From NCBI GenBank assembly GCA_041645165.1, contig JBAZQN010000011.1, positions 1,254 through 65,253 of the forward strand: 64,000 bases of DNA. The letters are read 5' to 3'. The translations under genes were made by a program, and so were the position numbers. This document shows, piece after piece, positions 4,860 to 62,631 of this stretch. Position 1 is the stretch's first letter, and the number at the start of each line of letters is the position of its first letter. A model generated the notes under the pieces. It had not been told where the DNA came from and made no database searches. It saw only the letters and a program-made list of their open reading frames with translations. This stretch comes from Patescibacteria group bacterium (GTDB lineage Bacteria > Patescibacteriota > Patescibacteriia > 2-02-FULL-49-11).

Positions 4860-4945
4860 AAAACCCCCTCTTTAGTCTCCCCCTTTCAGGGGGAGAACAT
4901 CCATCAATCGTCCTCCCCTTAAAAAGGGGGAGGATGAAGGTGGGG
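4860..4945 (+). terminator. pair of GC-rich hairpins downstream of murF (tctccccctttcagggggaga; cctccccttaaaaagggggagg)
   Basis: Two perfect 7-8 bp stems with no U-tract. Related C-rich palindromes occur inside the MITE-A copies. Confidence 0.4.
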
Positions 4946-7301: not shown

Positions 7302-8063
7302 TTATTTGATCACTTTCAAGAATCCCTCGACAAGGCTTGCCGTTTCTTCGGTGCTCTGGAATACCGATTTCCAGACCACGACAATGTCAGCGTCGTTGAA
7401 GATGACGCTCTGCGCTTCGCGGAGGGTGTCGCCGCCTGCGACCGCGATAAGCACGTCATAGTTCCCTTTGATCCTCCTGATCTCATGCAAGGGGAGCATC
7501 TTTTGCCTGTTAATCCGCTCTTCATCCACGCCGCGGTGGAGGATAACCACCGGCGGTATTTTTTTAAGCGCGCGCAGCACGGTGAGGGGAAATTCCACGT
7601 TCATCATGTCCACCATGGCGTCGAGCCCGAGCGATTGGCAGGTATCGATAAATGCATTAAGTGTTTCCACTGGCGCGTTTCCCAGTGCTACCGCGGCGCT
7701 CGCGCCGGCACGCGCCGCCATTTCGACTTCCGTGGATCCTCTGTCCATGGTTTTTAAGTCAGCAATGATATAAGGAATTTCAGTTATTTCATTTTGGAGT
7801 TGGAGAGGATGAGAGAGGGAGGAAAGTGCAAACCGGGGGTTAATCGTAAAGCGTCCGTATAATTTTTCGCTCCACCAATATACGATTTTTCTGATGCCCT
7901 CCTCGCCATACTGCTTGATAAGGGGTGTGCCCGCCTCTATCAAAATGCGGTTATCAGGAGGCAGCTGTTCAATAATACTGCGGGCTTCTTCAAGCGTATT
8001 GTTGAGCGCCACTTGCAGATAGCGCTTTTTATGGTCAAGTTTTGACTTATTCTTATTCATCAT
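7302..8063 (-). CDS. 3-hexulose-6-phosphate synthase-like protein (OMP-decarboxylase/KGPDC family)
   Basis: 253 aa. Motifs LQVALN…IEAGTPLIK…IIADLKTMDRG…GAS match the HPS/KGPDC TIM-barrel signature (LQVALD…EVGTPLI…ADxKxxDxG). Confidence 0.6.
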   Translation of the reverse strand: MMNKNKSKLDHKKRYLQVALNNTLEEARSIIEQLPPDNRILIEAGTPLIKQYGEEGIRKIVYWWSEKLYGRFTINPRFALSSLSHPLQLQNEITEIPYIIADLKTMDRGSTEVEMAARAGASAAVALGNAPVETLNAFIDTCQSLGLDAMVDMMNVEFPLTVLRALKKIPPVVILHRGVDEERINRQKMLPLHEIRRIKGNYDVLIAVAGGDTLREAQSVIFNDADIVVVWKSVFQSTEETASLVEGFLKVIK

Positions 8064-8104
8064 ACCTCATTAGTATACCAGCATTTGAATGAAAAAATAA
8101 TAGA

Positions 8105-8264
8105 GATGCATATATACGCTCACTGGCCATCGACACCCCTACCACGCCACTCCCTTTTTACGGGGAGGACATAATCGTTGTTCTCCCCCTCCGGTAGGGG
8201 GAGAATCACGAGAGGGGGTTTCATTCGGGAATACATATCCCCCCAGTGAGCGAGTACAGATGCA
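8105..8264. repeat. MITE-A copy 1: ~160-bp element with imperfect terminal inverted repeats (gatgcatatatacgctcactgg / ccagtgagcgagtacagatgcat)
   Basis: A 12-bp direct repeat gcatttgaatga flanks it. The interior contains the C-rich palindrome tctccccctccggtagggggaga. A second, larger copy lies at 52209-52502. Confidence 0.7.
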
Positions 8265-8482
8265 TTTGAATGAGAATTTAGTTTTCTTAAGAAGACGTTA
8301 AATTGTCGATCGATGATTTAACGTCATTCACTTTTATGGAATATTTGTAGGATAGTTGGTAGATGAGTGAGTTGAATGCAAAAAATCCCGTACTTGAATG
8401 TATATAAGCCGGGATTTTTTATAAGTTGACCCATATTTGGGCACCTCCTTTCCTAGGTTGAGATTAGAGGCAGTGGTCGTAG

Positions 8483-8665
8483 TTACGACCGTTTATTTTT
8501 TCTTTCTGGGTGGGCACAGGTGACTGAAGCACCCACCAATTCTTCGTAAACTGTCAAATTTTTTTTATATCGACAGTTTACCCTTTTTTGCTGCCAAAAG
8601 AACTCCCTAGTCTGCGCCGATTTCATCTCAACCAGCGGACATTTTTCTGAATGGCAGATTTCCAT
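8483..8665 (-). CDS. small Cys-containing peptide A (about 60 aa, MEICHSEKCPLVEMK…)
   Basis: Perfect SD aaaggaggtg 6 nt upstream of the ATG. Four Cys residues (C-x4-C … C … C). Paralogous to peptide B immediately upstream. Confidence 0.4.
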   Translation of the reverse strand: MEICHSEKCPLVEMKSAQTREFFWQQKRVNCRYKKNLTVYEELVGASVTCAHPERKNKRS

Positions 8666-8686
8666 GATACTCACCTCCTTTCAGGT

Positions 8687-8854
8687 TTATTTTTCATTCT
8701 TTTTTGGGAGGGGCAGTCGCTTGCACTCCCCATTCCCAGTAGGATTTGGAATACGATGTTTACATTTATTCCAAATCCACATCCACCCAACCTCTCCTTT
8801 CCCCTCAATAACAAGAGGGCAAGGCAACGAATGGCAATTTCCATACCTAGTCAA
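8687..8854 (-). CDS. small Cys-containing peptide B (about 55 aa, TTG start, …YGNCHSLPCPLVIEGK…)
   Basis: Perfect SD gaaaggaggtg 7 nt upstream of the TTG. Shares the CHSxxCPLVxE.K motif with peptide A at DNA and protein level. Its stop overlaps the SD of peptide A. Coordinates are good to about 1 nt. Confidence 0.35.
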   Translation of the reverse strand: MTRYGNCHSLPCPLVIEGKGEVGWMWIWNKCKHRIPNPTGNGECKRLPLPKKNEK

Positions 8855-8962
8855 TTTTATTCACCTCCTTTCATGGAGTTTTTAGGAGAACATTTTTTAC
8901 GCTCACACCATAGCATTGAAATCCCTGTATGTAAAGTGGTTCTGTGCAATATGGGATAGAAT

Positions 8963-9559
8963 TTGGTATACTGTTTAGAGAAGGAAGATACAAGGTACAA
9001 GAAACAAGTAACAAGAAATTTGATGTTGGATAAAAAGAGTATGCAAATTTCAGGGATAAGCGAAAAAGAATTACAAAAGAAATTGCGGGTGGGGTGGTTT
9101 ACGTTTACCTGCTGCGAGGATTCGACCATTATCATGACGGAAGTCATGAATGAGCATTGGGAAGAATGGAAGCGGTTTATTGATTTCCGCCACGCGCGGG
9201 TGTTGCGGACGGATAATATCCTCGATGAGCTTGACGTGGCGTTTGTGGAAGGCGCCATTTCGTCAGACCGTCAAGCGGCGCGCCTGAAGGAGATCCGCGA
9301 GAAAGCGAAACGCCTCGTGGCAGTAGGGGCGTGCGCGGTCATAGGGATGCCCTCATCCCAGCGCAATTTATTTGACGAGTCCACAAAGCGCGCCATCCAA
9401 TTCCTCGTGGACCGGTTTGGGCAGAAGGAATTGGTGAGGACGGTGAAGGAGCTTGTAAAGGTAGACGCAGAACTACCCGGTTGCCCGATGAATGAACAGA
9501 AATTTCTAGAAGTGTTGGAGAGGTATCTTAAGGAGTTTAATATTATCAAGGGATCATAA
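8963..9559 (+). CDS. [NiFe]-hydrogenase small subunit (NuoB-like Oxidored_q6 fold)
   Basis: Motifs WFTFTCCEDS … GACAVIGMP … GCPMNE match the proximal-cluster Cys ligands of hydrogenase small subunits. The likely true start is the ATG at 9041 (MQISGISEKEL…). It pairs with the large subunit at 11178. Confidence 0.7.
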   Translation: MVYCLEKEDTRYKKQVTRNLMLDKKSMQISGISEKELQKKLRVGWFTFTCCEDSTIIMTEVMNEHWEEWKRFIDFRHARVLRTDNILDELDVAFVEGAISSDRQAARLKEIREKAKRLVAVGACAVIGMPSSQRNLFDESTKRAIQFLVDRFGQKELVRTVKELVKVDAELPGCPMNEQKFLEVLERYLKEFNIIKGS

Positions 9560-9594
9560 CTCACCCCAGCCCTCTCTTATCCTAAGAGAGGGAG
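9557..9594 (+). repeat. HP1 palindromic element TAActcaccccagCCCTCTCTTAtccTAAGAGAGGGag, copy 1 (its TAA is the stop codon of the upstream gene)
   Basis: Perfect 10-bp stem with a 3-nt loop. Identical copies begin at 10514, 10627 and 11077. Three variant hairpins in reverse orientation lie at 14040-14165. Confidence 0.9.
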
Positions 9595-9634
9595 GTTGTC
9601 ATTCTTCATTGGTGTTTTATTAAGGAGAATTATT

Positions 9635-10516
9635 ATGAGACATAAAGGACACAATAGACCTCATGATGTAGCAAGCGAGAAACGCACCGCATGGAAACGT
9701 TCTCACCCGATAACTAAAGAATTGCTGGCCAAGGGCGCACAAAAATTTATGTCGAAAGAAAGACACCCTCAAATCGATAAGGCATTTTCCCCAAAAGTAC
9801 ATTGCGTATGCTGCATGGATGAAGGGACGGCGCATATGGAAAGAGGCAGTAAGCTGTTCATGGCAGGGAGCGGGATATTGTATCCCGCGGCAAGCTGGGA
9901 TGATCGACTTAATCGCGTGGCAGATTTGTTTATTGATTTGCATATCACAGAAATTACCAGCCATGACGGGTGCGGCGCCGCCGGCATTGCGTTTAAGCGG
10001 GATGGGGGGGGAGAAGGCACTGGATGCAAAACAGCTGATGAGTATGGGGAAAAATGGTGCAGTGATTTGCAGGCTATAATGGATACAAAGCTGGACGTGC
10101 CGGAAAATGTGGAGGGTGTACAAAACGTCCATATTCACGAACATGAAATGGAAAGGCCGGGAGAGTTCCATATCGCGAGAGTGGTCTGGTTTGATGCCAC
10201 CGGTGAATTTACCAAACCCGATATGTTGGGGGAGGAGATTCCAAAGGGATTTGCGATAAATTATCATGCGTTCGCTTCACGGGAGATGGGCGGCTATCCG
10301 CTTAGTGAATTGGAAGTGGCTATAAAAATCGCGTTCAGCGATCATGGGTTTGACAAAGAATTTACCAAAGGCCATCCTTTCGTCATTATCGTTATTGCCA
10401 AGGACGAGGATCAGAAGAAAGAAGTAACGGAATTGATTGGTGGAATCATGCAAGAGAAAGAAGAGATCTCGCAATACAAACACAGAATTCGTATTGATGG
10501 TTTTATTCATGAATAA
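9635..10516 (+). CDS. hypothetical Cys-rich protein inserted between the hydrogenase subunit genes
   Basis: SD aaggag 8 nt before the ATG at 9635 (the ORF track opens at an upstream TTG, 9596). Motifs VHCVCCMDEGTAH and SHDGCGAAG. No recognisable family. Bounded by HP1 copies. Confidence 0.5.
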   Translation: MRHKGHNRPHDVASEKRTAWKRSHPITKELLAKGAQKFMSKERHPQIDKAFSPKVHCVCCMDEGTAHMERGSKLFMAGSGILYPAASWDDRLNRVADLFIDLHITEITSHDGCGAAGIAFKRDGGGEGTGCKTADEYGEKWCSDLQAIMDTKLDVPENVEGVQNVHIHEHEMERPGEFHIARVVWFDATGEFTKPDMLGEEIPKGFAINYHAFASREMGGYPLSELEVAIKIAFSDHGFDKEFTKGHPFVIIVIAKDEDQKKEVTELIGGIMQEKEEISQYKHRIRIDGFIHE

Positions 10517-10551
10517 CTCACCCCAGCCCTCTCTTATCCTAAGAGAGGGAG
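10514..10551 (+). repeat. HP1 copy 2
   Basis: Same 38-nt element; its TAA is the stop codon of the 9635..10516 gene. Confidence 0.9.
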
Positions 10552-10664
10552 CCATTATTCCTCCTCGTGGTAAAGACCAATCTCTATGGAGTTCTGGAGA
10601 CAATTCTGCACATTCTTAAGGATTCGTAACTCACCCCAGCCCTCTCTTATCCTAAGAGAGGGAG
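10552..10664 (+). repeat. remnant of a tandem duplicate of the HP1-linker-DUF559 unit (linker stub, last 61 nt of the DUF559 ORF, HP1 copy 3)
   Basis: 10569-10629 is identical to the 3' end of the DUF559 gene (11019-11079). It is followed by a complete HP1, then the linker hairpin HP2 plus SD plus ATG of the intact gene. Confidence 0.8.
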
Positions 10665-10707
10665 CCATTATTCCTCCTCTTAAGGTAAGAGGAGGTAAGG
10701 AGGAGTT

Positions 10708-11079
10708 ATGAAGGCAACAAATCGGACATATAATGATCGAGAATTGAAATCGTTAAGAAGAACATTACGGAAGAATTTTACCGATCAAGAGAGATTATTG
10801 TGGAGTAAATTGCGCAATAGGCAATTAGACGGACATAAGTTTTATCGGCAATACGGTGTTGGTCGTTATGTGGTAGACTTTTATTGTCCTGAAAAACGAA
10901 TTGTAATTGAATTAGACGGAGGGCACCATACCGAGAAGACGAACCTTCAGCTTGATGCTGAAAGGGATAAGGCATTGAACACCCTCAACATTCGAGTATT
11001 AAGATTTTGGAACCATGAGGTAAAGACCAATCTCTATGGAGTTCTGGAGACAATTCTGCACATTCTTAAGGATTCGTAA
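10708..11079 (+). CDS. DUF559 / Vsr-like endonuclease-domain protein
   Basis: 123 aa with C-terminal motifs …VDFYCPEKRIVIELDGGHHTEK…DAERDKALNTLNIRVLRFWNHEV typical of the DUF559 restriction-endonuclease-like fold. Preceded by HP2 (cctcctcttaaggtaagaggagg) plus SD ggaggagtt plus ATG. Confidence 0.7.
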   Translation: MKATNRTYNDRELKSLRRTLRKNFTDQERLLWSKLRNRQLDGHKFYRQYGVGRYVVDFYCPEKRIVIELDGGHHTEKTNLQLDAERDKALNTLNIRVLRFWNHEVKTNLYGVLETILHILKDS

Positions 11080-11160
11080 CTCACCCCAGCCCTCTCTTAT
11101 CCTAAGAGAGGGAGCCATTATTTCTCCTCTTAAGGTAAGAGGAGGTAAGGAGGAGTTATG
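11077..11160 (+). repeat. HP1 copy 4 plus HP2-SD-ATG linker, exact duplicate of 10627-10710
   Basis: The 84-nt identity supplies an SD and ATG at 11158, opening a 10-codon mini-ORF that overlaps the large-subunit start at 11178. Confidence 0.9.
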
Positions 11161-11177
11161 ATTTATAACGTTACGTT

Positions 11178-12488
11178 ATGCATAAAATAGATTTTGATCT
11201 CTCATTGGAAGAGGTTACCAAAATAGAGGGCGCAGCGACTTTGAGCGTGAAAGTGCGGGATGCAAAGGTGGAGGAGTGCAAGTTCGGCATCGCCGAGTAT
11301 AAAAGGTTTTATACGCAGGCGATGGTGGGAAAGCCCGCCTCTGCGCTCCCGCAGCATTTGGCGCGCATCTGCGGCACCTGCTCAAACGCCCATATCATGG
11401 CGTCGCTCGATGCAGTGGAGCACGCACTGGGCATTGTCCCTTCGGCGCAAACGAAGGTGTTGCGCGCGCTTACGATGGATGGGCTCATGATCCGCGACCA
11501 TGCGCTTCATCTTTATCTTTTTTCCTTACCTGACCTTTTAGGAAAAGACTCGATTCTCGCATTGGATGAAAATGATCCGGAAGAACACCAGCTGCTCCAT
11601 GACGCGTTTGACGTCAAGGCCGCGGGTAATCACTTGTCGCAGCTTGTGGCAGGCAGGAGCGTGCATGCGCCGATGCCGGTGGTGGGAGGTTTTTTGAAAA
11701 TACCAGATTCCGCGGGCATTGAGAAATCTCGGCGGGAACTCGAGCAAATAAGGCCTGCTCTACTGCGGCTGATAGGCGTATACGGGAAAAGTACATTTAT
11801 TCTTCTTTCCAAGACCAATTATGTGGCGCTTACCGCCAATCCGTACAGTTTCTTGCAGGGAGATCTTTGCGCGAGCAATGTTGCGTGCATTCCGGAAGAG
11901 CAGTTTATGGAGCATTTAAGCCATGTGGTGGTGCCTTATTCGCAGGCCTCCGCCTACGCGTTCCAGGGAGAGCTTTATCGGGTTGGCGCTTTGGCTCGCT
12001 TGAATTTGAACAAAGATGCGCTCAATCCCCGCACGAAAGCGGACGCTGCCCAATATCTTGCACGGTTCCCTTCAGATAACGCATATGATAACAATCTCGC
12101 GCAGGCAATCGAAATCCTGCACTGCATAGATGAGGCGCTGGAGATGCTCTCTACCCATTCATTCCATGCAGAGACGCCGCAAAAGGCGAACCCTCATGCG
12201 GGCGAGGGCATTGGCGTGATTGAGGCTCCCCGCGGCACGCTCTACCATAAGGTGGAGCTGGATGAAAAGGGGATAGTCACGCACGGCGACATCGTGGTGC
12301 CCACGGGGCAGAACCAGCTCGCCATTGAATGGGATATCAAGCAGTTAGTGGAGCAGTGGTTGAAGGAGGGGAAGGAGATTGGGAATAAAAAAGCGCTCGA
12401 ACATGAAATCGAGCAGCTTATCCGCGCGTACGACCCTTGCATGAGCTGCGCGGCGCATTTTTTGGAAGTTACGTGGGATGAAGCATAG
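11178..12488 (+). CDS. [NiFe]-hydrogenase large subunit
   Basis: N-terminal RICGTCSNAH (RxCGxCxxxH, L1) and C-terminal DPCMSCAAH (DPCxxCxxH, L5) Ni-Fe ligand motifs. 436 aa fits a group-3-type enzyme. Confidence 0.85.
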   Translation: MHKIDFDLSLEEVTKIEGAATLSVKVRDAKVEECKFGIAEYKRFYTQAMVGKPASALPQHLARICGTCSNAHIMASLDAVEHALGIVPSAQTKVLRALTMDGLMIRDHALHLYLFSLPDLLGKDSILALDENDPEEHQLLHDAFDVKAAGNHLSQLVAGRSVHAPMPVVGGFLKIPDSAGIEKSRRELEQIRPALLRLIGVYGKSTFILLSKTNYVALTANPYSFLQGDLCASNVACIPEEQFMEHLSHVVVPYSQASAYAFQGELYRVGALARLNLNKDALNPRTKADAAQYLARFPSDNAYDNNLAQAIEILHCIDEALEMLSTHSFHAETPQKANPHAGEGIGVIEAPRGTLYHKVELDEKGIVTHGDIVVPTGQNQLAIEWDIKQLVEQWLKEGKEIGNKKALEHEIEQLIRAYDPCMSCAAHFLEVTWDEA

Positions 12489-12852
12489 CCGCAATTTCTT
12501 CAACGACGCGGCCATTGTCTTCGGGAGGCACACCAATAATCCGGACTTCAAGGTCCGGATTTATTTTTTTAAGCAGAAGCAGGTGGAGCCCAAGGTCGAA
12601 ATCGTGAAGGCTTACGTTGCTGCGTGTTTTTAGCGCGGCGGCAAAAGCATCAAGCGATTCGAAGCAGGACACGTCCTTGATCCCTTTCACCGTGTCAATG
12701 ATCCACCAGGGGTTTTCCGGCGGTATACATTCCTCGGTTGGGTCTTTTACTTCAAAGGTAATTTCTGGGAAACGTTTTTGAAGTTCTGGAAGAATTCTCA
12801 AGGGAAGCGAATCTTCTTCAAGAAGTGGATTGCCAAAAACAGTAATGGTCAT
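12469..12852 (-). CDS. hydrogenase maturation protease (HycI/HoxW-like)
   Basis: 127 aa. N-terminus ITVFGNPLLEEDSLPLRI matches the GNxLxxDDGxG signature. It is convergent with and overlaps the large-subunit gene by about 20 nt. Confidence 0.5.
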   Translation of the reverse strand: MTITVFGNPLLEEDSLPLRILPELQKRFPEITFEVKDPTEECIPPENPWWIIDTVKGIKDVSCFESLDAFAAALKTRSNVSLHDFDLGLHLLLLKKINPDLEVRIIGVPPEDNGRVVEEIAAMLHPT

Positions 12853-12964
12853 AGTCTTGACGGATAGCTATTTTTCTGTTAAATTTCTCTGTTTAAAAAG
12901 TCAGATGAGACTGAAAGGGCAAAAAAGTTTTCAGTCGCATCTTAAATGAAAGAGAGGAGAGGAG

Positions 12965-13162
12965 GTGAAGAAGATGAAGAAGAAAGTAAGCCTCTCATTT
13001 CAGTATAAGCATGAGCGTAAACCTTCATCAGTGAGGTTTATCGAGCTTATACCATATGGGTCGCCGGAGTTCGTTCTCTCGAAGATCGAAAGTGCATTAA
13101 GAATAATGCAAGAAACCGGTGATGAAATACTTACAATCTCCCAGGATGGGTGGTTGAGGTAG
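12965..13162 (+). CDS. small hypothetical protein (65 aa)
   Basis: SD ggaggtg 7 nt upstream of the ATG. Lys-rich N-terminus. No similarity recognised. Confidence 0.3.
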   Translation: MKKMKKKVSLSFQYKHERKPSSVRFIELIPYGSPEFVLSKIESALRIMQETGDEILTISQDGWLR

Positions 13163-13200
13163 TGTGGATGGGAGATTAGTCATAGCCCGGCTAATCTCTT

Positions 13201-14010
13201 TTATATTAATGAAAATTGTAACGAGAGTTTTGTATAATGTATCAAATTTTTAAGCTGCTGAGGATTTAATATTTCGCAGGGCATATCCCAGTGGATGGAA
13301 ATCGTGTCACCCTCCTTTACCTCTTCCATAAGCGAATCATCGTCCAGCCTGCGGGTGATGCGGTAGGGGTTGGGGGAGCCGAGGATTAAACGATTGGGAT
13401 TCCCTTTTAGTTTTTTTTGCCTGGATCCCGCATCAAGTGCGGGATGACAATGAGAAAGGATAAGCGGTTGCCGTGATACTGTGATAAATGGCCCGTCTAT
13501 GAGTATGACCTTCCCCCAGCTCACACGGCATTTGTCCATGCTTTCGAGTGTGTGTTCCGTTTCTGCGTGCCCCGTGCGCTGCCACACATTGAACACATGG
13601 AAATTATGATGAGGGAGCGGGTGATATTGTAGCGTCGCCGTGAGATGGTCGAAATTACGCGCGGTGAGGCGCTTTTTTAATTTCAGCGCGTCAGTGAAAT
13701 GGGTCAGGAGCATTTGTGGGGTGATGGGAGTGAGCAGTTCGTTGCCGAGCCAGTAGGATTCGACGATGCGTTCGTCAAAAGGATCCGCAATGCCGTTCGC
13801 ATGCGCAATCATCTCTAGGTAGGGATAGAGCGTTTTGAATTTATGGAGCAGGTTTTCAAGCCCTTGGCCGCTTTCTTTCGCGGTGAGGTAGGCGAGCACT
13901 TCGCGGTTCGCGTCAGGCCCGCACAGGTGCAGGCGATTGGGGCCGAAAGAATAACGCGCGCAGCGCGACACGCCGTCAACAGGCACAGAGGTGGATAAAG
14001 GCTGAACCAT
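13201..14010 (-). CDS. hypothetical protein (269 aa) carrying an in-frame copy of the ccgcatcaagtgcggg hairpin element
   Basis: Long ORF with no recognised motif. Nucleotides 13420-13453 (ctggatcccgcatcaagtgcgggatgacaatgag) match repeats at 25362 and 25941. Confidence 0.45.
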   Translation of the reverse strand: MVQPLSTSVPVDGVSRCARYSFGPNRLHLCGPDANREVLAYLTAKESGQGLENLLHKFKTLYPYLEMIAHANGIADPFDERIVESYWLGNELLTPITPQMLLTHFTDALKLKKRLTARNFDHLTATLQYHPLPHHNFHVFNVWQRTGHAETEHTLESMDKCRVSWGKVILIDGPFITVSRQPLILSHCHPALDAGSRQKKLKGNPNRLILGSPNPYRITRRLDDDSLMEEVKEGDTISIHWDMPCEILNPQQLKNLIHYTKLSLQFSLI

Positions 14011-14039
14011 ACGCGGAGAAATACGGTTCGTAACTCCTC

Positions 14040-14165
14040 CCCGCCTCCTCTTATCCTAAGAGGAGGAGTCGATTTTGGCCTTCCCTCTTATTTTAAGAGG
14101 GAAGATTTGATGCATCACCCTCTCTTAAAGTAAGAGAGGGATGGGGTGAGTTACGAGAAACGAGG
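14040..14165 (-). repeat. three HP1/HP2-type hairpins in reverse orientation (cctcctcttatcctaagaggagg, ccctcttattttaagaggg, ccctctcttaaagtaagagaggg) plus cgtaactcacccca
   Basis: This is the reverse complement of the ctcaccccag-hairpin unit. The DMT transporter ORF reads through it for about 23 codons. Confidence 0.8.
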
Positions 14166-15049
14166 GGAGTTATGAGTTTTCGCGTGCCCCAGATGAGGAG
14201 AGTGGAACCAAGAACGACCAATACGCCGTTATATACTTGAGGCAGCGTGATTGAATGGGTGATAAATATTCCACTCATGACGTTTGTTATGAGCGTCGCA
14301 GGCACCAGAAGCGCCGTGGCAACGGTGACGGGCAATTTTTTAAGCGCGCTATACCACGTGGTGACATACCCCAAGAGCAGCAGTGCGGTGAGCAAGGTCC
14401 ATCCCCATTGCATAGCATTCAGATGCACTATGGCGCCGCTGCCGTCCTTGAGCGCAAGAATAAGGAAAAGGAAGAGCGATCCTACTGCCATGCGCGCGCC
14501 CGCAACCGTGAGGCTTGAGATATTGGCCAATGCCTTTTTGGCAACGACATTCTCAAGCGCCCAAAATACGGTCGCCATCAGCACCAGCGCCTCACCTATG
14601 TTGAAATTAAATTTAGGAAATCCCAATGCGAGGTTACCGCCGAAAAGCAGAAGGAGGGCGGCTATCTGGGTAATGCCTATATGTTCTTTTAATAGAGGAA
14701 CAGCAAAAATGGCAGCCCAGAGGAAGAGGGTTTTATGGATGAATGCGGCACTGAGGGCGGGTATCATGGAGAGGCCTGTGAAGTAGAGGATAAAGGGCAC
14801 GCATCCGCCGATGACCGCAATGAAGAGCAGTTGGAGCGCTTGAGAAGATTTTAGTGAAATTAATTCTTTCCATCTCTTCGTGAGAAGAATAATTCCTACA
14901 AGCGTCGCGCCCACAAGCGCATTTCGTAGAGTGGTGGAGAGTATGGGATCCTTGAGCGCGGTCACTGCGATCTTTGTTAAAAAATTATTGGTGCCGGAAA
15001 AGAATGCGGTAGCAAGCGCGAGCATGATACCCTTGGTAGCATTGTTCAT
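14093..15049 (-). CDS. DMT-superfamily (EamA-like) transporter, 10 TM
   Basis: Two repeated 5-TM halves with hydrophobicity typical of EamA. The C-terminal ~23 aa are encoded by the repeat cluster. Confidence 0.7.
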   Translation of the reverse strand: MNNATKGIMLALATAFFSGTNNFLTKIAVTALKDPILSTTLRNALVGATLVGIILLTKRWKELISLKSSQALQLLFIAVIGGCVPFILYFTGLSMIPALSAAFIHKTLFLWAAIFAVPLLKEHIGITQIAALLLLFGGNLALGFPKFNFNIGEALVLMATVFWALENVVAKKALANISSLTVAGARMAVGSLFLFLILALKDGSGAIVHLNAMQWGWTLLTALLLLGYVTTWYSALKKLPVTVATALLVPATLITNVMSGIFITHSITLPQVYNGVLVVLGSTLLIWGTRKLITPLVSRNSPHPSLTLREGDASNLPS

Positions 15050-48078: not shown

Positions 48079-49494
48079 ATGCCATACCGAATCGCGCATA
48101 TCACCCCCGTGTACCCGCCTTATGCAGGCGGTATTGGGGTTGTGGCGAAAAATATGGCGGGAGGGTTGGCAGGAAGAAGATGGCAAGTGGAAACGTTTAC
48201 GCCCACGTTGGATAACTCCACCCAACCTCCTCTTAAGTTAAGAGGAGGGGAAGGAGGAGTTATGGATAATAAAATAACGTATCTCAAACCATGGTTGCAT
48301 GTGGGCAATGCGGCGCTCGTGCCGCAATTAAGGAAATTAGAAGGATACGATATCATTCATCTGCATTATCCTTTTTTCGGCGGGGCTGAATTTGTTCTTC
48401 TGGGTATAATTTTTCAACGATTTAATTCCGCGTTTTTCAGCGATAAGGCCACGCGTGACGTTCCGCGTAAGTCAGCGTTCATTTTACAATACCATCATGA
48501 CGCAGACGCTAAAGGTTTGAAGGGGATGATGTTTAAACTTTATGACAGGATTGTGCTCCCGCGTTTGATCACGCGCGCCGACAGGGTGATCGTATCAGCG
48601 ATGGATTATGCGCAACATTCACGCATTGCGAAATACATAAGCGATAAGTTTGTCGAAATACCGTTTGGGGTTGATGCGAAACGATTTGAACCGTTAGGTA
48701 GTCATTCTGAACGTAGTGAAGAATCTCCCGTGCATACGGGCACACCGCTGGCATTCGCCAGAGATCCTTCCCCCGACTCGCGGGGTCAGGATGACAAATC
48801 CGTTATTGTTCTCTTCGTCGGTTCCCTCGACCGCGCGCATTGGTTTAAAGGGTTAGAGGTATTACTTCACGCGTTCGCCATACTGAAACAAGAAAATGAA
48901 CAAAATCGTTTAAAATCTACTCATTTAAACCCTACCCTAAATACCACGAGCCAACTTCGCCATAGTAGCCAAAGGCTACGTCGGCTGAATCGTGGTAATC
49001 CTGCCTGCGCAGGCAGGAGGGAGGGATTGAATTTGAAATGTTTGGTTATAGGCGAAGGTAATCTTAAAGAGAAATATAAAAAAATGGCACAAGATTTAGG
49101 GATTCAAGACCAAGTGCAGTTTTTTGGCAACGTGTCTCAAACGCAATTGCCTGATTATTACCGCAACGCGGACCTTTTTGTGTTTCCTTCGGTATCGCGC
49201 GCGGAAGCATTCGGATTGGTGGCGCTTGAAGCAATGGCGTCAGGTTTGCCCGTCATCGTAAGCGATCTGCCGGGAGTGCGGACGCTGGTGGAAGAGGGGA
49301 TAAACGGATTTAAGGTGCCTGTGAATGATCCACGTGCGTTGGCGCGACGCATTCAGGATCTGATTGAAGATAAGTCACTACGCGGCAGTATGGGACAAAA
49401 AAGCAGAGAAAAGGTTTTAGAGGGTTATACATGGGATAAGGCTATTGACAAGATAGAGAGAGTGTACTTAGATATGTTGGTAAATAAACCATGA
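48079..49494 (+). CDS. GT4 glycosyltransferase with three in-frame repeat-derived insertions
   Basis: N-terminus MPYRIAHITPVYPPYAGGIG. C-terminus EAFGLVALEAMASGLPVIVSD (Glycos_transf_1). Insertions: 48216-48273 (HP2 hairpin plus ggaggagttATG), 48701-48794 (RPE-like), about 48900-49030 (palindromes gccatagtagcc…ggctacg and cctgcctgcgcaggcagg). Confidence 0.75.
   Translation: MPYRIAHITPVYPPYAGGIGVVAKNMAGGLAGRRWQVETFTPTLDNSTQPPLKLRGGEGGVMDNKITYLKPWLHVGNAALVPQLRKLEGYDIIHLHYPFFGGAEFVLLGIIFQRFNSAFFSDKATRDVPRKSAFILQYHHDADAKGLKGMMFKLYDRIVLPRLITRADRVIVSAMDYAQHSRIAKYISDKFVEIPFGVDAKRFEPLGSHSERSEESPVHTGTPLAFARDPSPDSRGQDDKSVIVLFVGSLDRAHWFKGLEVLLHAFAILKQENEQNRLKSTHLNPTLNTTSQLRHSSQRLRRLNRGNPACAGRREGLNLKCLVIGEGNLKEKYKKMAQDLGIQDQVQFFGNVSQTQLPDYYRNADLFVFPSVSRAEAFGLVALEAMASGLPVIVSDLPGVRTLVEEGINGFKVPVNDPRALARRIQDLIEDKSLRGSMGQKSREKVLEGYTWDKAIDKIERVYLDMLVNKP
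48216..48273 (+). repeat. HP2-SD-ATG element (cctcctcttaagttaagaggagg ggaaggaggagttATG) inserted in-frame inside the GT4 gene
   Basis: Same module that precedes the DUF559 and hydrogenase-large-subunit starts. It creates an internal SD plus ATG at 48271. Confidence 0.8.
48701..48794 (+). repeat. RPE-like palindromic element, copy 2 (in-frame in GT4)
   Basis: gtcattctgaacgtagtgaagaatctccc…agatccttcccccgactcgcggggtcaggatgac encodes HSERSEESPVHTGTPLAFARDPSPDSRGQDD. Confidence 0.85.
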
Positions 49495-61407: not shown

Positions 61408-62592
61408 TTATAATTTATCTAAAGCCTGTTCTAGGTCCATAATAAGGTCCTTCATATCTTCAATCCCCACGGACATGCGGATAAGGGTGTCTGAAATGCC
61501 AAGCTGCGTGCGCAGTGCGGACGGGAGGGAAGCGTGCGTCATGCGCGCGGGGTGCTCGATAAGCGATTCCACCCCCCCGAGGCTTTCTGCCAGGGAGAAA
61601 ATGCGAAGCGATGACAAGAATTGCTTTGCATCGTCGAGGCCTCCTTTGAGTTCGAAAGAGATAATTCCGCCGAATCCTGTCATTTGCTTTTTGGCGAGTT
61701 CGTATTGCGGATGACTCGGAAGCCCCGGATAAATGACGCGGGCAATGTGAGAGTGGCGCGCTAACCGCAGCGCGATCTTCCGCGCATTTTTTTCATGCTT
61801 TTCCATACGGAGCGCGAGCGTTTTTATACCCCGCAGCACGAGCCAGCAATCGAAGGGAGAAGGCACGGCACCGGCGGCATTTTGGATAAATTTAAGCTGC
61901 TGATACACATCGCTGCGGTTCGTGATAACTGCGCCTCCTACTGCGTCACTATGCCCTCCGATGTACTTGGTGGTGCTATGGAGAGAAATATCCGCACCCA
62001 ATGAGAGCGGCTTTTGGAAATAGGGCGAGGCAAACGTATTATCCACTACCACGAGCGCGTCAGGATTTTGCTTCTTGGCGCACGCGGCGATCTTTTGGAT
62101 GTCGCAGAGTTTCAGGAGGGGATTGGTGGGTGTCTCCAACCATATCATTTTTGTTCGTTTCGAAATGAAATCCGTTATCGTTTCCGGCGATGAAAGATCC
62201 GCATAGGAAAATGTGATATCGAATTTAATGGCAATCATGTCAAACAGCCGCCGTGTGCCTCCATAGAGATCATCGCAGGCAATCGCCTCATCTCCGTGTT
62301 TTAAGAGTTTCATCACGCTATCAATCGCCGCAAGGCCTGAAGCGAAGGCAAGGCTGTGCGCGGCATATTCAAGGCTCGCAAGCACCAATTCAAGCGCATG
62401 GCGCGTGGGATTGCCTGTCCGGGAATATTCGTATCCCTGGGTAGGAGATTCCACCTCCTTGCGGGCGAACGTCGTTGCCATATGAATCGGCACCACGACA
62501 TCGCCGCTCCCTCCTTCTTTGAGGTTTGGTTCTTGGCCAATGTGTATTGCGCGGGTAGCAAATTGCATAGTGGGAGAAAGAGACCTCCCCAT
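61408..62592 (-). CDS. PLP-dependent cystathionine gamma-synthase/lyase-family enzyme (Cys/Met metabolism)
   Basis: Cys_Met_Meta_PP signature …STTKYIGGHSDAVGGAV… with the PLP lysine region. 394 aa. Confidence 0.8.
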   Translation of the reverse strand: MGRSLSPTMQFATRAIHIGQEPNLKEGGSGDVVVPIHMATTFARKEVESPTQGYEYSRTGNPTRHALELVLASLEYAAHSLAFASGLAAIDSVMKLLKHGDEAIACDDLYGGTRRLFDMIAIKFDITFSYADLSSPETITDFISKRTKMIWLETPTNPLLKLCDIQKIAACAKKQNPDALVVVDNTFASPYFQKPLSLGADISLHSTTKYIGGHSDAVGGAVITNRSDVYQQLKFIQNAAGAVPSPFDCWLVLRGIKTLALRMEKHEKNARKIALRLARHSHIARVIYPGLPSHPQYELAKKQMTGFGGIISFELKGGLDDAKQFLSSLRIFSLAESLGGVESLIEHPARMTHASLPSALRTQLGISDTLIRMSVGIEDMKDLIMDLEQALDKL

Positions 62593-62631
62593 CCCCTCCT
62601 TGCTAAGGAGGGGACTTGAGGGGCGGTTTCC

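What the first reader, a model, noticed from the sequence alone, without database searches (positions are those of the whole stretch)
9557..11160. Hydrogenase small- and large-subunit genes split by two cassette-like genes bounded by identical stop-codon hairpins, with a DUF559 tandem-duplication remnant
Between the [NiFe] small subunit (ends 9559) and the large subunit (11178) lie a Cys-rich unknown gene (9635..10516) and a DUF559/Vsr-like endonuclease gene (10708..11079). Every gene boundary carries the 38-nt element TAActcaccccagCCCTCTCTTAtccTAAGAGAGGGag, with copies at 9557, 10514, 10627 and 11077. In each copy the element's own TAA serves as the stop codon of the upstream gene. Nucleotides 10552-10664 are a deletion derivative of a second [HP1-linker-DUF559] unit: only the last 61 nt of the DUF559 ORF survive. 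Nucleotides 10627-10710 and 11077-11160 are an exact 84-nt duplicate. Established knowledge: DUF559 proteins are restriction-endonuclease-fold proteins often seen as multicopy, selfish-looking genes. Inference: recent insertion and tandem duplication of a DUF559 cassette into the hydrogenase operon. The hairpin may act as an insertion target that carries a stop codon, or as a terminator.
Basis: partly seen in the sequence, partly recalled or inferred. Interest (0 to 1): 0.7.

Follow-up and report, generated by a model that had tools for sequence, protein, structure and literature searches.

The report
Triplex-motif repeats bracketing a DUF559 nuclease gene
The "stop-codon hairpins" are copies of a known dispersed repeat, the G/C-rich intrastrand triplex motif, and here they bracket a small DUF559 nuclease gene inserted in a Patescibacteria hydrogenase operon; DUF559 genes from several phyla show the same bracketing, so this orphan nuclease may be the missing partner of these orphan repeats.

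Summary
Four exact 38-nt copies lie at 9557, 10514, 10627 and 11077, and each TAA is a stop codon. The DUF559 gene and a 58-nt remnant of its 3' end are real. The "exact" 84-nt duplicate has one mismatch.

- The Cys-rich gene is a conserved beta-carbonic-anhydrase-fold gene. It sits between hydS and hydL in all four close relatives, so it is not a cassette.
- The DUF559 insertion is not recent. It is shared by relatives with 79-91% identical neighbours and is absent from an 88% hydL relative.
- The hairpin is not a terminator and does not seek stop codons. It has the grammar TAA-X / reverse(X)-TTA / loop / TAA-complement(X), which is the intrastrand triplex motif (TM, PIT, BoxC) of Holder et al. 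2015.

New here: DUF559 genes in Patescibacteria, cyanobacteria, rhizobia, Deinococcus, Neisseria and Photobacterium are flanked by such motifs. The start and stop codons are often embedded in the motif ends. The gaps flanking DUF559 carry a motif 4/16 times against 5/180 for other gaps.

My best reading is a selfish nuclease gene unit tied to TM repeats, analogous to REP/RAYT. The enzymatic link is inferred, not shown.

The parts
9041..9559 (+). hydS, the [NiFe] hydrogenase small (delta-like) subunit, 172 aa. Its stop codon is the TAA of triplex-motif copy A.
   Evidence: Pfam Oxidored_q6, E 3e-19. Best NCBIfam model is sulfhydrogenase HydD, below cut-off. Gene call.
9557..9594 (+). Triplex-motif (TM) copy A, a half element: head TAA-CTCACCCC, spacer AG, hairpin CCCTCTCTTA-tcc-TAAGAGAGGG. 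Present in relative L133, absent in L131 and L004.
   Evidence: (TM finder).
9635..10516 (+). Resident 293-aa gene with a beta-carbonic-anhydrase fold, probably a metalloenzyme. Invariant residues C60, D62, H110, C113. Not a cassette.
10514..10566 (+). TM copy B: head, hairpin 1, linker AGCCATTATT and the first 7 nt (CCTCCTC) of hairpin 2. A truncated doublet.
   Evidence: Identical over 53 nt to 10627-10679.
10567..10626 (+). Remnant of the DUF559 3' end. 58 nt exact (10569-10626 = 11019-11076), joined to copy B through GTG.
   Evidence: tblastn hit to residues 105-123.. Absent from L131 and L133.
10627..10710 (+). TM doublet C. The pyrimidine-type TM is head plus hairpin 1 (10627-10664). After the linker comes the purine-type TM: hairpin 2 CCTCCTCTTA-agg-TAAGAGGAGG (10673-10695) and tail GGAGGAGTTA (10699-10708). 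The tail supplies the Shine-Dalgarno sequence and the A of the DUF559 ATG.
   Evidence: As RNA it folds to -45.4 kcal/mol, z -4.7.
10708..11079 (+). DUF559 (Vsr-like PD-(D/E)xK) nuclease gene, 123 aa. The ATG lies in the upstream TM tail and the TAA in the downstream TM head.
   Evidence: Pfam PF04480, 122 bits. PDB 3hrl, E 5.5e-21. dN/dS 0.20-0.25 against L131 and L133.
11077..11160 (+). TM doublet D. One mismatch to doublet C (11123 T). It ends in GGAGGAGTTATGA, 17 nt before the hydL start.
11178..12488 (+). hydL, the [NiFe] hydrogenase large (alpha-like) subunit, 436 aa.
   Evidence: Pfam NiFeSe_Hases. Best NCBIfam model is sulfhydrogenase alpha. RICGTCS and DPCMSCAAH motifs in the translation.
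14027..14156 (-). A member of the same family with three hairpins, between the EamA gene and the DUF6390 gene. The EamA ORF reads through its first hairpin (...SPHPSLTLREGDASNLPS*). An orthologous element with a nested insertion exists in L004.
48212..48264 (+). Single-hairpin member (TAACTCCACCC-aa-CCTCCTCTTAagtTAAGAGGAGG-ggaa-GGAGGAGTTA) lying in frame inside a GT4 glycosyltransferase ORF. It encodes NSTQPPLKLRGGEGGV.

Best explanation
**What the repeat is.** The 38-nt 'hairpin' is the Patescibacteria version of a G/C-rich intrastrand triplex motif (TM, also called PIT or BoxC-like). It is built as TAA-X, a 2-4 nt spacer, reverse(X)-TTA, a 3-nt loop, then TAA-complement(X). The result is a homopyrimidine mirror repeat overlapping a true palindrome. 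It is a dispersed repeat that occurs as half elements, single-hairpin elements and inverted doublets.

**What the DUF559 unit is.** The DUF559 gene encodes a Vsr-fold nuclease. It sits between two inverted TMs whose third-strand segments face the gene, so the upstream TM supplies the Shine-Dalgarno sequence and the ATG, and the downstream TM supplies the TAA. This compact unit was inserted just upstream of hydL in an ancestor of the window, L133 and L131 lineages.

**Later events.** Recombination or slippage between the near-identical flanking doublets then produced the 113-nt partial duplicate (10514-10626). The Cys-rich gene is a resident beta-carbonic-anhydrase-fold gene.

**Inferred mechanism.** DUF559 is a selfish or semi-domesticated nuclease that acts on the non-B structure (hairpin or triplex) formed by its cognate TMs. 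The resulting nicks are repaired by copying from other TM-bearing loci. This would spread and homogenise the TMs and occasionally copy the nuclease gene into a new TM site. The relationship would be analogous to REP/REPIN elements and their RAYT transposase.

**Confidence by step.**
- Anatomy: about 0.9.
- TM class membership: about 0.85.
- The DUF559 unit is or was a mobile insertion: about 0.75.
- DUF559 acts enzymatically on TMs: about 0.4.
For: **Anatomy.**

**Mirror grammar.** Head and stem covary across at least six stem types: CCCTCTC/CTCaCCC, CCTCCTC/CTCCTCC, CCTCCCC/CCCCTCC, CCCCCTC/CTCCCCC and others. In a permutation test, 195 of 381 own heads match at 6/7 or better, against a mean of 82 and a maximum of 111 for swapped heads.

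**Known class.** Holder et al. 2015 (PMC4666352) describe C-stem, loop, G-stem, loop, G-stem motifs with one mismatched triplet. They occur in many copies, form inverted A+B pairs and form a triplex in vitro. The authors report 'never found ... transposases or integrases'.

**Dispersal.** Almost all carry the TAACTCACCCC head.

**Insertion history.**
- L004 lacks the unit.
- L131 and L133 carry it at the same site.
- A 70%-identical DUF559, bracketed [hairpin-GGGGAGTTA]TG...TCA[TAACTCCTCC-hairpin], lies between hydS and hydL in a lineage whose hydL is only 75% identical.
- Sister lineages carry a PDDEXK_3 nuclease gene with its own inverted repeats (L166) or a MITE-like element (L167) in the same spacer.
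- L138 has a second DUF559 unit that L139 lacks.

**DUF559-TM association beyond this clade.**
- 8 of 120 TM-seeded loci hold a DUF559 gene, and 5 of those lie within 80 nt of the seed hairpin.
- In ten unbiased 40-kb DUF559 loci from PLSDB, TM density is 0.87/kb within 300 nt of the gene and 0.096/kb elsewhere.
- Gaps flanking DUF559 carry a TM 4/16 times against 5/180 for other gaps, Fisher P 0.003.
- Pseudanabaena, S. meliloti, Deinococcus, Photobacterium and N. gonorrhoeae show the same modules. Pseudanabaena has the same doublet-gene-doublet layout.
- Annotated DUF559 proteins carry N- or C-terminal extensions that translate such hairpins, for example PPLSKGG and SPFSKGGLRG.

**Other points.** DUF559 is under purifying selection, dN/dS 0.20-0.25. 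The flanking doublets are homogenised within each genome: the linker is AGCCATTATT in the window and AGTTATCAAT in L131.
Against: - No direct evidence that DUF559 binds or cuts TMs.
- 12 of 32 DUF559 genes examined have no TM within 150 nt. These include E. coli, Azospirillum brasilense, Methylobacterium and Novosphingobium.
- The great majority of TMs are far from any DUF559 gene.
- The orientation of TMs relative to the gene is preferred, not fixed: 18 third-strand-facing against 9 hairpin-facing, from a noisy classifier.
- No target-site duplication could be defined. No empty-versus-filled pair was close enough to map exact insertion boundaries.
- The unit has been positionally stable across three lineages, which also fits a domesticated host function.
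- A different nuclease family and a MITE occupy the same spacer elsewhere. The site may simply be a permissive hotspot, and TMs and DUF559 may co-accumulate there.
- Holder et al. found no stable triplex in vivo by DMS footprinting.
- The association statistics rest on crude gene calls and small numbers.
Confidence: 0.6

Rival explanations
1. DUF559 is a free-standing homing-endonuclease-like gene that targets the conserved hydS-hydL junction, or nearby conserved sequence. The TM repeats are unrelated passengers: independently spreading, structure-prone repeats that pile up in the same permissive or unstable spacers.
For: The same spacer holds a PDDEXK_3 nuclease gene with different inverted repeats in L166 and a MITE-like element in L167. 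DUF559-family and Vsr-like folds include a proven homing endonuclease, I-Bth0305I (papers PMC3239194 and PMC3424549). About 40% of DUF559 loci have no TM. Holder et al. link TMs to local genomic instability.
Against: The DUF559 start and stop codons are embedded in TM ends in lineages as far apart as Patescibacteria and S. meliloti or Pseudanabaena. In Sinorhizobium K101 all three TMs in 40 kb flank DUF559. Gap-level enrichment is about 12-fold. DUF559 units also occur at sites unrelated to hydrogenase.
Confidence: 0.25
2. The elements are cis-acting RNA or expression signals kept by the host. These would be operon punctuation in which TAA stops the upstream gene, stable hairpins protect or process the mRNA, and the tail supplies an SD plus ATG that restarts translation. 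DUF559 would then be just one of the genes so punctuated.
For: The TAA, the hairpin and the AAGGAGG-N4-ATG layout sit at three boundaries in this operon. The doublet folds to -45 kcal/mol as RNA, z -4.7. In some loci the tail ATG is the real start of a host gene, for example L027 MCGIVG....
Against: Copies occur in both orientations, in frame inside ORFs and as half elements. There is no frame preference for the TAA (31/27/13). There is no T-run terminator and no Rfam family. L004 and L131 run the same operon without copy A, and L004 without any copy. The earlier work summarised by Holder et al. found no promoter or terminator activity for TMs.
Confidence: 0.08
3. One reading: a recent insertion and tandem duplication of a DUF559 cassette, with the hairpin acting as a stop-codon-carrying insertion target, and both intervening genes being cassettes.
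For: The unit is absent from L004. The remnant is specific to the window lineage. Four exact copies exist.
Against: The unit is shared with L131 and L133 at dS 0.16-0.31. The Cys-rich gene is syntenic in all four relatives and is a beta-carbonic-anhydrase-fold gene. There is no stop-codon frame preference. No integron-type integrase or attC-like architecture is present.
Confidence: 0.05
4. The 113-nt remnant (10514-10626) is an assembly artefact created by collapsing or mis-joining the near-identical doublets.
For: The source is a short-read MEGAHIT metagenome contig. A Logan unitig of the same gene breaks inside the repeats. The relatives lack the remnant.
Against: The junction CCTCCTC-GTG-GTAAAG is unique sequence that exists nowhere else in the window. 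The 143-nt repeat carries a distinguishing mismatch. The lookup indicates a second record with the same gene neighbourhood.
Confidence: 0.1

Closest known systems
[quoted passage not shown] 2015, NAR 43:10126 (PMC4666352)
   Same: Both have three consecutive blocks, one C-rich and two G-rich on the purine strand, with short loops. Often one triplet is mismatched. Stems are conserved and loops variable. Both occur in many dispersed copies and frequently as inverted pairs of two subtypes. No transposase or integrase lies nearby, and both are associated with local rearrangement.
   Different: The Patescibacteria stems are shorter (7 + TTA/TAA) and carry fixed TAA/TTA ends that create stop codons and an SD-ATG. 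Copies occur in frame inside ORFs, whereas TMECO is 'always intergenic'. The phylum was not covered by that survey. The linkage to DUF559 is not reported there (0 hits for endonuclease, DUF or Vsr).
REP/REPIN (BIME) elements and their RAYT (TnpA-REP) transposase
   Same: Both are short structured palindromic repeats with a conserved single-stranded tag beside the hairpin. Both occur singly and as inverted doublets. The associated small nuclease gene is itself flanked by the repeats, while most copies lie far from the gene.
   Different: RAYT is a Y1 HUH enzyme, whereas DUF559 is a PD-(D/E)xK Vsr-fold protein. REP tags are GTAG or CGTC, not a mirror repeat of the stem. No activity has been shown for DUF559.
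Free-standing and intron- or intein-borne homing endonucleases, especially the Vsr-like EDxHD enzyme I-Bth0305I (PMC3239194)
   Same: A small nuclease gene of the Vsr/DUF559 superfamily sits between conserved genes, present or absent among relatives, and different selfish nuclease genes occupy the same spacer in sister lineages.
   Different: Here there is no intron or intein, no cleavage site has been shown in empty alleles, the gene is bracketed by dispersed repeats, and its position has been stable across three lineages.
Vsr very-short-patch repair endonuclease, and E. coli YcjD-type DUF559 proteins (PDB 3hrl from N. gonorrhoeae)
   Same: Same fold and family (Pfam PF04480, 122 bits; 3hrl E 5.5e-21).
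   Different: No adjacent cytosine methyltransferase gene. The E. coli DUF559 locus has no TM within 40 kb.
Rickettsia palindromic elements (RPE) and similar coding-region MITEs (recalled from memory: Ogata et al. 2000; not checked here)
   Same: Short palindromic repeats tolerated in frame inside protein-coding genes (window 48212-48264; the EamA C-terminus at 14118-14156).
   Different: Different sequence, and RPEs have no triplex-type mirror grammar. RPEs have no associated nuclease gene.

Membership tests
Intrastrand triplex motif (TM/PIT/BoxC class; Holder et al. 2015) | Three consecutive blocks: a Watson-Crick hairpin (blocks 2 and 3) plus a third block that mirrors the adjacent arm. Stems 6-15 nt with at most 1 mismatch, loops 1-6 nt. 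| tested here: met
   CTCaCCC-(C)AG-CCCTCTC(TTA)-tcc-(TAA)GAGAGGG. My TM finder recovers all copies. The covariation test is significant.
Intrastrand triplex motif (TM/PIT/BoxC class; Holder et al. 2015) | G/C-rich, over-represented, dispersed multi-copy, with conserved stems and variable loops. | tested here: met
   13 TMs in the 64-kb window. At least 120 loci in species-representative genomes. Loops vary while stems are fixed.
Intrastrand triplex motif (TM/PIT/BoxC class; Holder et al. 2015) | Occurrence as inverted pairs of two subtypes. | tested here: met
   Doublets pair the CCCTCTC type with the CCTCCTC type at 10627-10708 and 11077-11158, and likewise in L016, L048, L071.
Intrastrand triplex motif (TM/PIT/BoxC class; Holder et al. 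2015) | The single strand actually folds into a triplex (CD/NMR). | not testable with these tools
   Only sequence compatibility was shown. ViennaRNA does not model triplexes.
DUF559 / Vsr-like PD-(D/E)xK nucleases | Full-length match to PF04480 above the gathering score, and similarity to a solved member. | tested here: met
   122.2 bits against a cut-off of 20.6, covering model positions 3-108 of 109. 3hrl E 5.5e-21. The VDF...ELDGGHH core is visible in the alignment.
DUF559 / Vsr-like PD-(D/E)xK nucleases | Nuclease activity and substrate. | not testable with these tools
   No biochemical data.
REP/RAYT system | An HUH Y1 transposase gene flanked by REPs, and a GTAG or CGTC tag 5' of the palindrome. 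| tested here: not met
   The flanked gene is DUF559. The tag is TAACTCACCCC, a mirror of the stem. The resemblance is functional analogy only.
Classical MITE (TIR plus target-site duplication, derived from an IS) | Terminal inverted repeats. | tested here: met
   (TCA)TAACTC...GAGTTA(TGA) is imperfect. CA/TG extends the ends in 62 of 192 modules.
Classical MITE (TIR plus target-site duplication, derived from an IS) | Target-site duplication and a cognate DDE transposase with the same TIRs. | tested here: inconclusive
   Flanks differ between copies. A TA duplication cannot be told apart from TIR bases. No transposase with these ends was seen in the window or the loci.
Free-standing homing endonuclease gene | Presence/absence polymorphism at a fixed site between conserved genes. 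| tested here: met
   Present in the window, L131, L133 and the L136-L145 lineage. Absent in L004, L166, L167.
Free-standing homing endonuclease gene | Cleavage of the empty allele, with co-conversion of flanks. | not testable with these tools
   The only hint is that DUF559 dS (0.31, window vs L131) is lower than that of the neighbouring genes (0.75-0.97), though hydS is 0.39.
   No integrase in the neighbourhood. The repeat has a triplex-motif grammar. The Cys-rich gene is syntenic without repeats in L004 and L131.
Beta-class (CsoSCA/zeta-like) carbonic anhydrase fold, for the 293-aa gene | Fold similarity and a Cys-(Asp)-His-Cys metal site. | tested here: met
   None of the four copies was reported by the terminator scan. 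The real candidate lies after hydL at 12538.

The most novel reading that the evidence does not exclude
DUF559 proteins are the dedicated structure-specific nucleases of intrastrand triplex motifs. They would recognise the hairpin or triplex extruded by a TM and nick at the third-strand/hairpin junction, driving copy-repair that spreads TMs and occasionally the nuclease gene itself. This would define a previously unrecognised, phylum-spanning class of selfish element, a PD-(D/E)xK counterpart of REP/RAYT. It would explain both an orphan protein family and an orphan repeat family for which 'no mobility genes' had been found.
Probability: 0.3. Interest if true: 0.85.

Novelty: new variant of a known kind. 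Interest (0 to 1): 0.6.

Why it matters
Intrastrand triplex motifs (BoxC/PIT/TM) are present in thousands of copies in hundreds of bacterial genomes. They are linked to genome instability, yet their origin and means of spread are unknown. The key survey states that no mobility functions were ever found next to them.

DUF559 is one of the larger uncharacterised nuclease families and is routinely mis-annotated as 'very-short-patch-repair endonuclease'. A reproducible physical linkage between the two, in which the gene's start and stop codons are built into the motif ends, gives a concrete and cheap hypothesis to test: purified DUF559 on folded TM oligonucleotides.

Practical consequences:
- These motifs explain contig breaks and spurious N- or C-terminal extensions in DUF559 annotations.
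- In Patescibacteria they are tolerated inside coding regions and operons.

For the hydrogenase operon itself the result is deflationary. It is a normal group-3b-like hydS-hydL pair carrying a resident carbonic-anhydrase-fold gene and one old selfish insertion.

Tried and rejected
- **Rfam.** Search of 8000-15000 at E up to 5 found nothing credible at the elements, only chance miRNA and scaRNA hits.
- **Terminator reading.** No T-run terminators at the copies.
- **Stop-codon targeting.** The frame test on 194 modules gave 31/27/13, no clear preference.
- **Tail ATG as a regular start codon.** Only 13 of 62 ATG-bearing tails open an ORF of at least 60 codons.
- **Related loci in metagenome contigs with the DUF559 protein.** Only 2 loci returned, too few for statistics.
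- **Viral contigs.** No head-plus-hairpin, no bare hairpin and no DUF559 relative, so there is no evidence for phage carriage.
- **Mapping exact insertion boundaries.** Comparing filled sites (window, L131, L138) with empty sites (L004, L139) failed because the intergenic DNA is too diverged or rearranged to align.
- **Reading short [hairpin-tail-ATGA...TCATAA-head-hairpin] pairs as internal-deletion derivatives of the DUF559 unit.** This is attractive (L012, L078, L085, L101, L125). However, TCATAA/TTATGA belongs to the general element consensus, so it cannot be shown.
- **Automated TM orientation around DUF559.** Noisy, because tblastn hits run into the repeats and nested insertions break the motifs.
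- **Sequence-level identification of the 293-aa protein.** Pfam, NCBIfam, PADLOC and PDB by sequence found nothing. Only structure comparison worked.
- **Integron cassette and REP/RAYT membership.** Considered and rejected (see the membership table).
- **Literature.** No paper connecting DUF559 with repeats or triplex motifs was found in the held library. The library is incomplete, so prior description elsewhere cannot be excluded.

Full report
**1. Checking the observation**

The region was read directly and its ORFs were listed. The 38-nt string occurs exactly four times in the 64-kb window, at 9557, 10514, 10627 and 11077, all on the + strand. Shuffles give none. Each TAA is in frame as a stop codon:
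- for the small-subunit gene (ends 9559);
- for a 293-aa gene (9635..10516);
- for a short frame that holds the last 19 codons of DUF559 (tblastn);
- for the intact DUF559 gene (10708..11079).

Pfam confirms Oxidored_q6 for hydS, NiFeSe_Hases for hydL and DUF559 at 122 bits. It finds nothing for the 293-aa protein. NCBIfam places both hydrogenase subunits nearest the group-3b sulfhydrogenase delta and alpha models, below the curated cut-offs.

Three corrections apply. The '84-nt exact duplicate' has one mismatch (10673 C / 11123 T) and is part of a 143-nt repeat (10569-10711 = 11019-11161). The remnant is 58 nt exact. Copy B shares 53 nt with copy C.

**2. Anatomy of the repeat**

Downstream of hairpin 1 (CCCTCTCTTA-tcc-TAAGAGAGGG) the complete copies continue with a linker. 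Then come a second hairpin (CCTCCTCTTA-agg-TAAGAGGAGG) and the string TAAGGAGGAGTTATGA.

The two ends, (TCA)TAACTC... and ...GAGTTA(TGA), are inverted repeats. The left end therefore carries the TAA. The right end carries a Shine-Dalgarno sequence and the ATG used by DUF559.

Two more family members lie in the window:
- A three-hairpin copy at 14027-14156 on the minus strand. The EamA ORF reads through it.
- A one-hairpin copy at 48212-48264. It lies in frame inside a GT4 glycosyltransferase ORF.

**3. Source and relatives**

The window is a 66.4-kb contig from a metagenome (ENA ERZ27249422). Its proteins are labelled Patescibacteria. Context lookups give the following picture.

| Locus | Identity to window | hydS-hydL region |
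|---|---|---|
| L004 (GCA_040757655.1) | 293-aa protein 69%, hydL 88% | hydS, 292-aa gene, then hydL only 7 nt later; no DUF559, no repeat at either boundary |
| L131 | 293-aa protein 79% | DUF559 at the same place, flanked by the same two-hairpin doublet; no remnant copy; lacks the copy after hydS |
| L133 | 293-aa protein 91% | DUF559 at the same place with the same doublet; no remnant copy; has the copy after hydS |

The DUF559 unit therefore entered after the split from L004 and before the window/L133/L131 split. The hydS-proximal copy is younger. The 113-nt segment 10514-10626 is specific to the window lineage.

DUF559 evolves under purifying selection (dN/dS 0.20-0.25). Its dS to L131 is 0.31, lower than for the 293-aa gene (0.97) and hydL (0.75) but similar to hydS (0.39).

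Within each genome the two flanking doublets share their linker: AGCCATTATT here, AGTTATCAAT in L131. That points to homogenisation by recombination. The same process would generate the partial tandem copy.

**4. The Cys-rich gene**

This gene has 57 homologues, all unannotated and mostly Patescibacteria. It is next to the hydrogenase genes only in the closest relatives. More distant homologues follow ATP synthase genes or lie elsewhere.

It is a resident gene with a carbonic-anhydrase-like fold, not a cassette.

**5. What the repeat is**

Most are Patescibacteria of many classes. A few come from MAGs of other phyla.

Nearly every hit carries TAACTCACCCC 2-4 nt 5' of the hairpin, or its complement 3' of it. 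That string was not part of the query.

Tabulating other stem types shows that the 'head' is the mirror image of the adjacent hairpin arm:

| Hairpin arm | Head |
|---|---|
| CCCTCTC | CTCaCCC |
| CCTCCTC | CTCCTCC |
| CCTCCCC | CCCCTCC |
| CCCCCTC | CTCCCCC |

A permutation test that keeps composition confirms the covariation. Own heads match at 6/7 or better in 195 of 381 cases. Heads swapped between stem types give a mean of 82 and a maximum of 111.

A pyrimidine mirror repeat abutting a palindrome is the definition of an intrastrand triplex motif. Holder et al. 2015 (PMC4666352) describe this class under the names TM/TMECO, and earlier PIT and BoxC. They report:
- the pattern CCCTCNCCC-N3-6-GGGNGAGGG-N3-GGGNGAGGG;
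- frequently one mismatched triplet;
- 3610 copies in 262 proteobacterial genomes, and high numbers in cyanobacteria and Neisseria;
- inverted type A plus type B pairs;
- triplex formation in vitro;
- association with local rearrangements;
- 'never ... remnants of transposases or integrases' nearby.

My own finder, written to those rules, recovers all copies here and 13 in the window. The element is thus a new, TAA/TTA-capped Patescibacteria member of a known repeat class.

Rfam has no family for it. None of the copies looks like a terminator. As RNA the doublet would fold into a long hairpin (-45.4 kcal/mol, z -4.7).

Across 194 modules the TAA closes an ORF of at least 60 codons in 31 cases, against 27 and 13 for the other two frames. 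There is therefore no general rule that the element sits on stop codons. The dinucleotide beyond the ends (CA...TG) is part of the element consensus in a third of copies.

**6. Link to DUF559**

*Within Patescibacteria.* Among the 120 hairpin-seeded loci, eight contain a DUF559 gene. In five of them the seed hairpin is within 80 nt of that gene. The other three have variant modules nearby. L038 repeats the window's arrangement exactly: hairpin-GGGTGAGTTATG...DUF559...TAACTCCTCC-hairpin.

*A second hydrogenase lineage.* The nearest non-orthologous DUF559 (P0060, 70% identical) again lies between hydS and hydL, in a lineage that lacks the carbonic-anhydrase-like gene and whose hydL is 75% identical. 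It is bracketed by [CCCCTCTTAaggTAAGAGGGG-cta-GGGGAGTTA]TG and TCA[TAACTCCTCC-caa-CCTCCTCTTAtctTAAGAGGAGG]. One strain of that lineage has a second DUF559 unit that a close relative lacks.

*Sister lineages.* At similar distance, L166 carries a PDDEXK_3 nuclease gene with its own inverted repeats in the same spacer, and L167 carries a roughly 100-nt MITE-like element there. The spacer upstream of hydL is a recurrent landing site.

*Outside Patescibacteria.*
- DUF559 proteins in the big protein collection mostly sit on contigs of about 1 kb. Many carry terminal extensions that are translated hairpins, such as PPLSKGG, SPFSKGGLRG and NPSPPPLILRGGG. The DNA confirms head/hairpin/tail modules.
- Five DUF559 loci from PLSDB all show such modules: Pseudanabaena, Synechocystis, Picosynechococcus, Deinococcus and S. 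meliloti. Pseudanabaena has the same doublet-gene-doublet layout as the window.
- In ten further 40-kb DUF559 loci, TM density is 0.87/kb within 300 nt of the gene and 0.096/kb elsewhere.
- With intergenic gaps as the unit, gaps flanking DUF559 hold a TM in 4 of 16 cases against 5 of 180 for other gaps (Fisher P 0.003).

*Limits.* The link is not universal. E. coli, Azospirillum brasilense, Methylobacterium and Novosphingobium loci have none. The orientation preference is only 18 to 9. No copies and no relatives were found in 2.9 million viral contigs.

*Literature.* Searches of the held literature found no paper connecting DUF559 with these repeats. DUF559 is grouped there with Vsr and the homing endonuclease I-Bth0305I. 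The closest solved structure is 3hrl.

**7. Explanation**

*Shown.*
- The element's grammar and its class.
- The old, lineage-restricted insertion of a DUF559 unit whose start and stop codons are built into TM ends.
- The window-specific partial duplication.
- The resident nature and fold of the Cys-rich gene.
- A statistical and architectural association between DUF559 genes and TMs across phyla.

*Inferred.* DUF559 acts on the structures formed by TMs. Break repair from other TM-bearing loci then spreads and homogenises the repeats and occasionally the gene. The relationship would resemble REP/REPIN and RAYT, but with a PD-(D/E)xK enzyme.

*Main rival.* DUF559 is an independent homing-type selfish gene, and TMs merely co-accumulate in unstable, permissive spacers. 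The PDDEXK_3 and MITE occupants of the same site, and the TM-less DUF559 loci, speak for this rival. The embedding of start and stop codons in TM ends in distant phyla speaks against it.

*Poorly supported.* Regulatory or terminator readings, and the 'recent cassette' reading.

**8. Verdict**

The operon itself is ordinary. The 'hairpin' belongs to a described repeat class. The DUF559-TM unit appears not to have been described and gives a testable handle on two orphan families. I rate it a new variant of a known kind, with moderate-to-high interest that depends on the enzymatic link. That link needs a genome-wide census and a simple cleavage assay.

Noticed in passing
window 8400-8900 (minus strand): Three copies of CACCTCCTTTC lie on the + strand, which gives strong GAAAGGAGGTG Shine-Dalgarno sites on the minus strand. 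Each precedes a small minus-strand ORF (MGQLIK..., MEICHSEKC..., MEIAIRC...) in the otherwise gene-poor 900 nt upstream of hydS. The gene caller used for the source contig called two of them (60 and 57 aa). A weak lysM-TM7 RNA hit lies at 8733-8891 (25.8 bits against a gathering score of 61.5, E 0.19).
   Followed up: no
window 48079-49494: The GT4 glycosyltransferase ORF carries the single-hairpin triplex motif in frame (NSTQPPLKLRGGEGGV). Its translation shows at least two more low-complexity stretches that look like in-frame repeat insertions (…SERSEESPVHTGTPLAFARDPSPDSRGQDDKS…, …NPTLNTTSQLRHSSQRLRRLNRGNPACAGRREGLNLK…). The alignment to solved GT4 enzymes was too weak at the N-terminus to prove the insertion.
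   Followed up: partly
window 14093-14160; L004 8420-8530: The EamA-family gene ends inside a triplex motif, so its last 18 residues or so are repeat-encoded. The orthologous element in L004 has another small palindrome (CGTCGAGAAGACCCAGTGGGTCTTCCGACG) nested inside its second hairpin.
   Followed up: partly
window 4863-4896, 8181-8218, 62592-62626: Three further triplex-motif-like modules with different stem sequences (TCTCCCCCT, TTCTCCCCC, TCCCCTCC), found by the TM finder. Their contexts were not examined.
   Followed up: no
L166 590-1075; L139 2495-2600: A PDDEXK_3 ('GxxExxY'-type) nuclease gene sits in the hydS-hydL spacer of a sister lineage. It is flanked by inverted repeats AGAAGCGGAA...ATCCGCG / CGCGGAT...TTCCGCTTCT. 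A gene-less copy of the same repeat type lies in L139. This would be a second pairing of a small nuclease with its own repeat, parallel to DUF559/TM.
   Followed up: partly
L167 1335-1445: A roughly 100-nt element with terminal inverted repeats (TTGTCATTCTCGCGAAGGCGGGAATCCAGA ... TCCCCGATATGGTCGAGGATGACAA) fills the hydS-hydL spacer in another lineage.
   Followed up: no
L138 622-2049: The hydL of the P0060 lineage is 475 aa long. It carries an in-frame insert of about 39 aa (…RDRNDASSRGEHPSALSSHPSQEGIPLQGRGDREAGGVGNAEERDVLRK…) near the C-terminus, where the window protein has KEGKEIGNKKAL. This is probably a repeat inserted in a [NiFe] large subunit.
   Followed up: no
L131 2590-2632 and 3095-3122; L004 4900-4975: Other families of small GC-rich palindromes are nested inside the triplex motifs, between head and hairpin and inside a hairpin loop. 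One occupies the hydS/carbonic-anhydrase-like spacer of L004. These genomes therefore carry several interleaving repeat families.
   Followed up: no
window 12469-12852 (minus strand): A conserved 127-aa ORF (131 aa in L004, 127-140 aa in the other lineages) converges on hydL and overlaps its last 20 nt. It has no Pfam or NCBIfam hit. Its constant position beside hydL suggests a hydrogenase accessory or maturation protein.
   Followed up: no
(protein collection): Most close DUF559 homologues are known only from contigs of about 1 kb, and the Logan unitig of the 293-aa gene (L002) ends inside the repeats. These motifs appear to break short-read assemblies systematically, so DUF559 units are probably under-represented in MAGs.
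   Followed up: no
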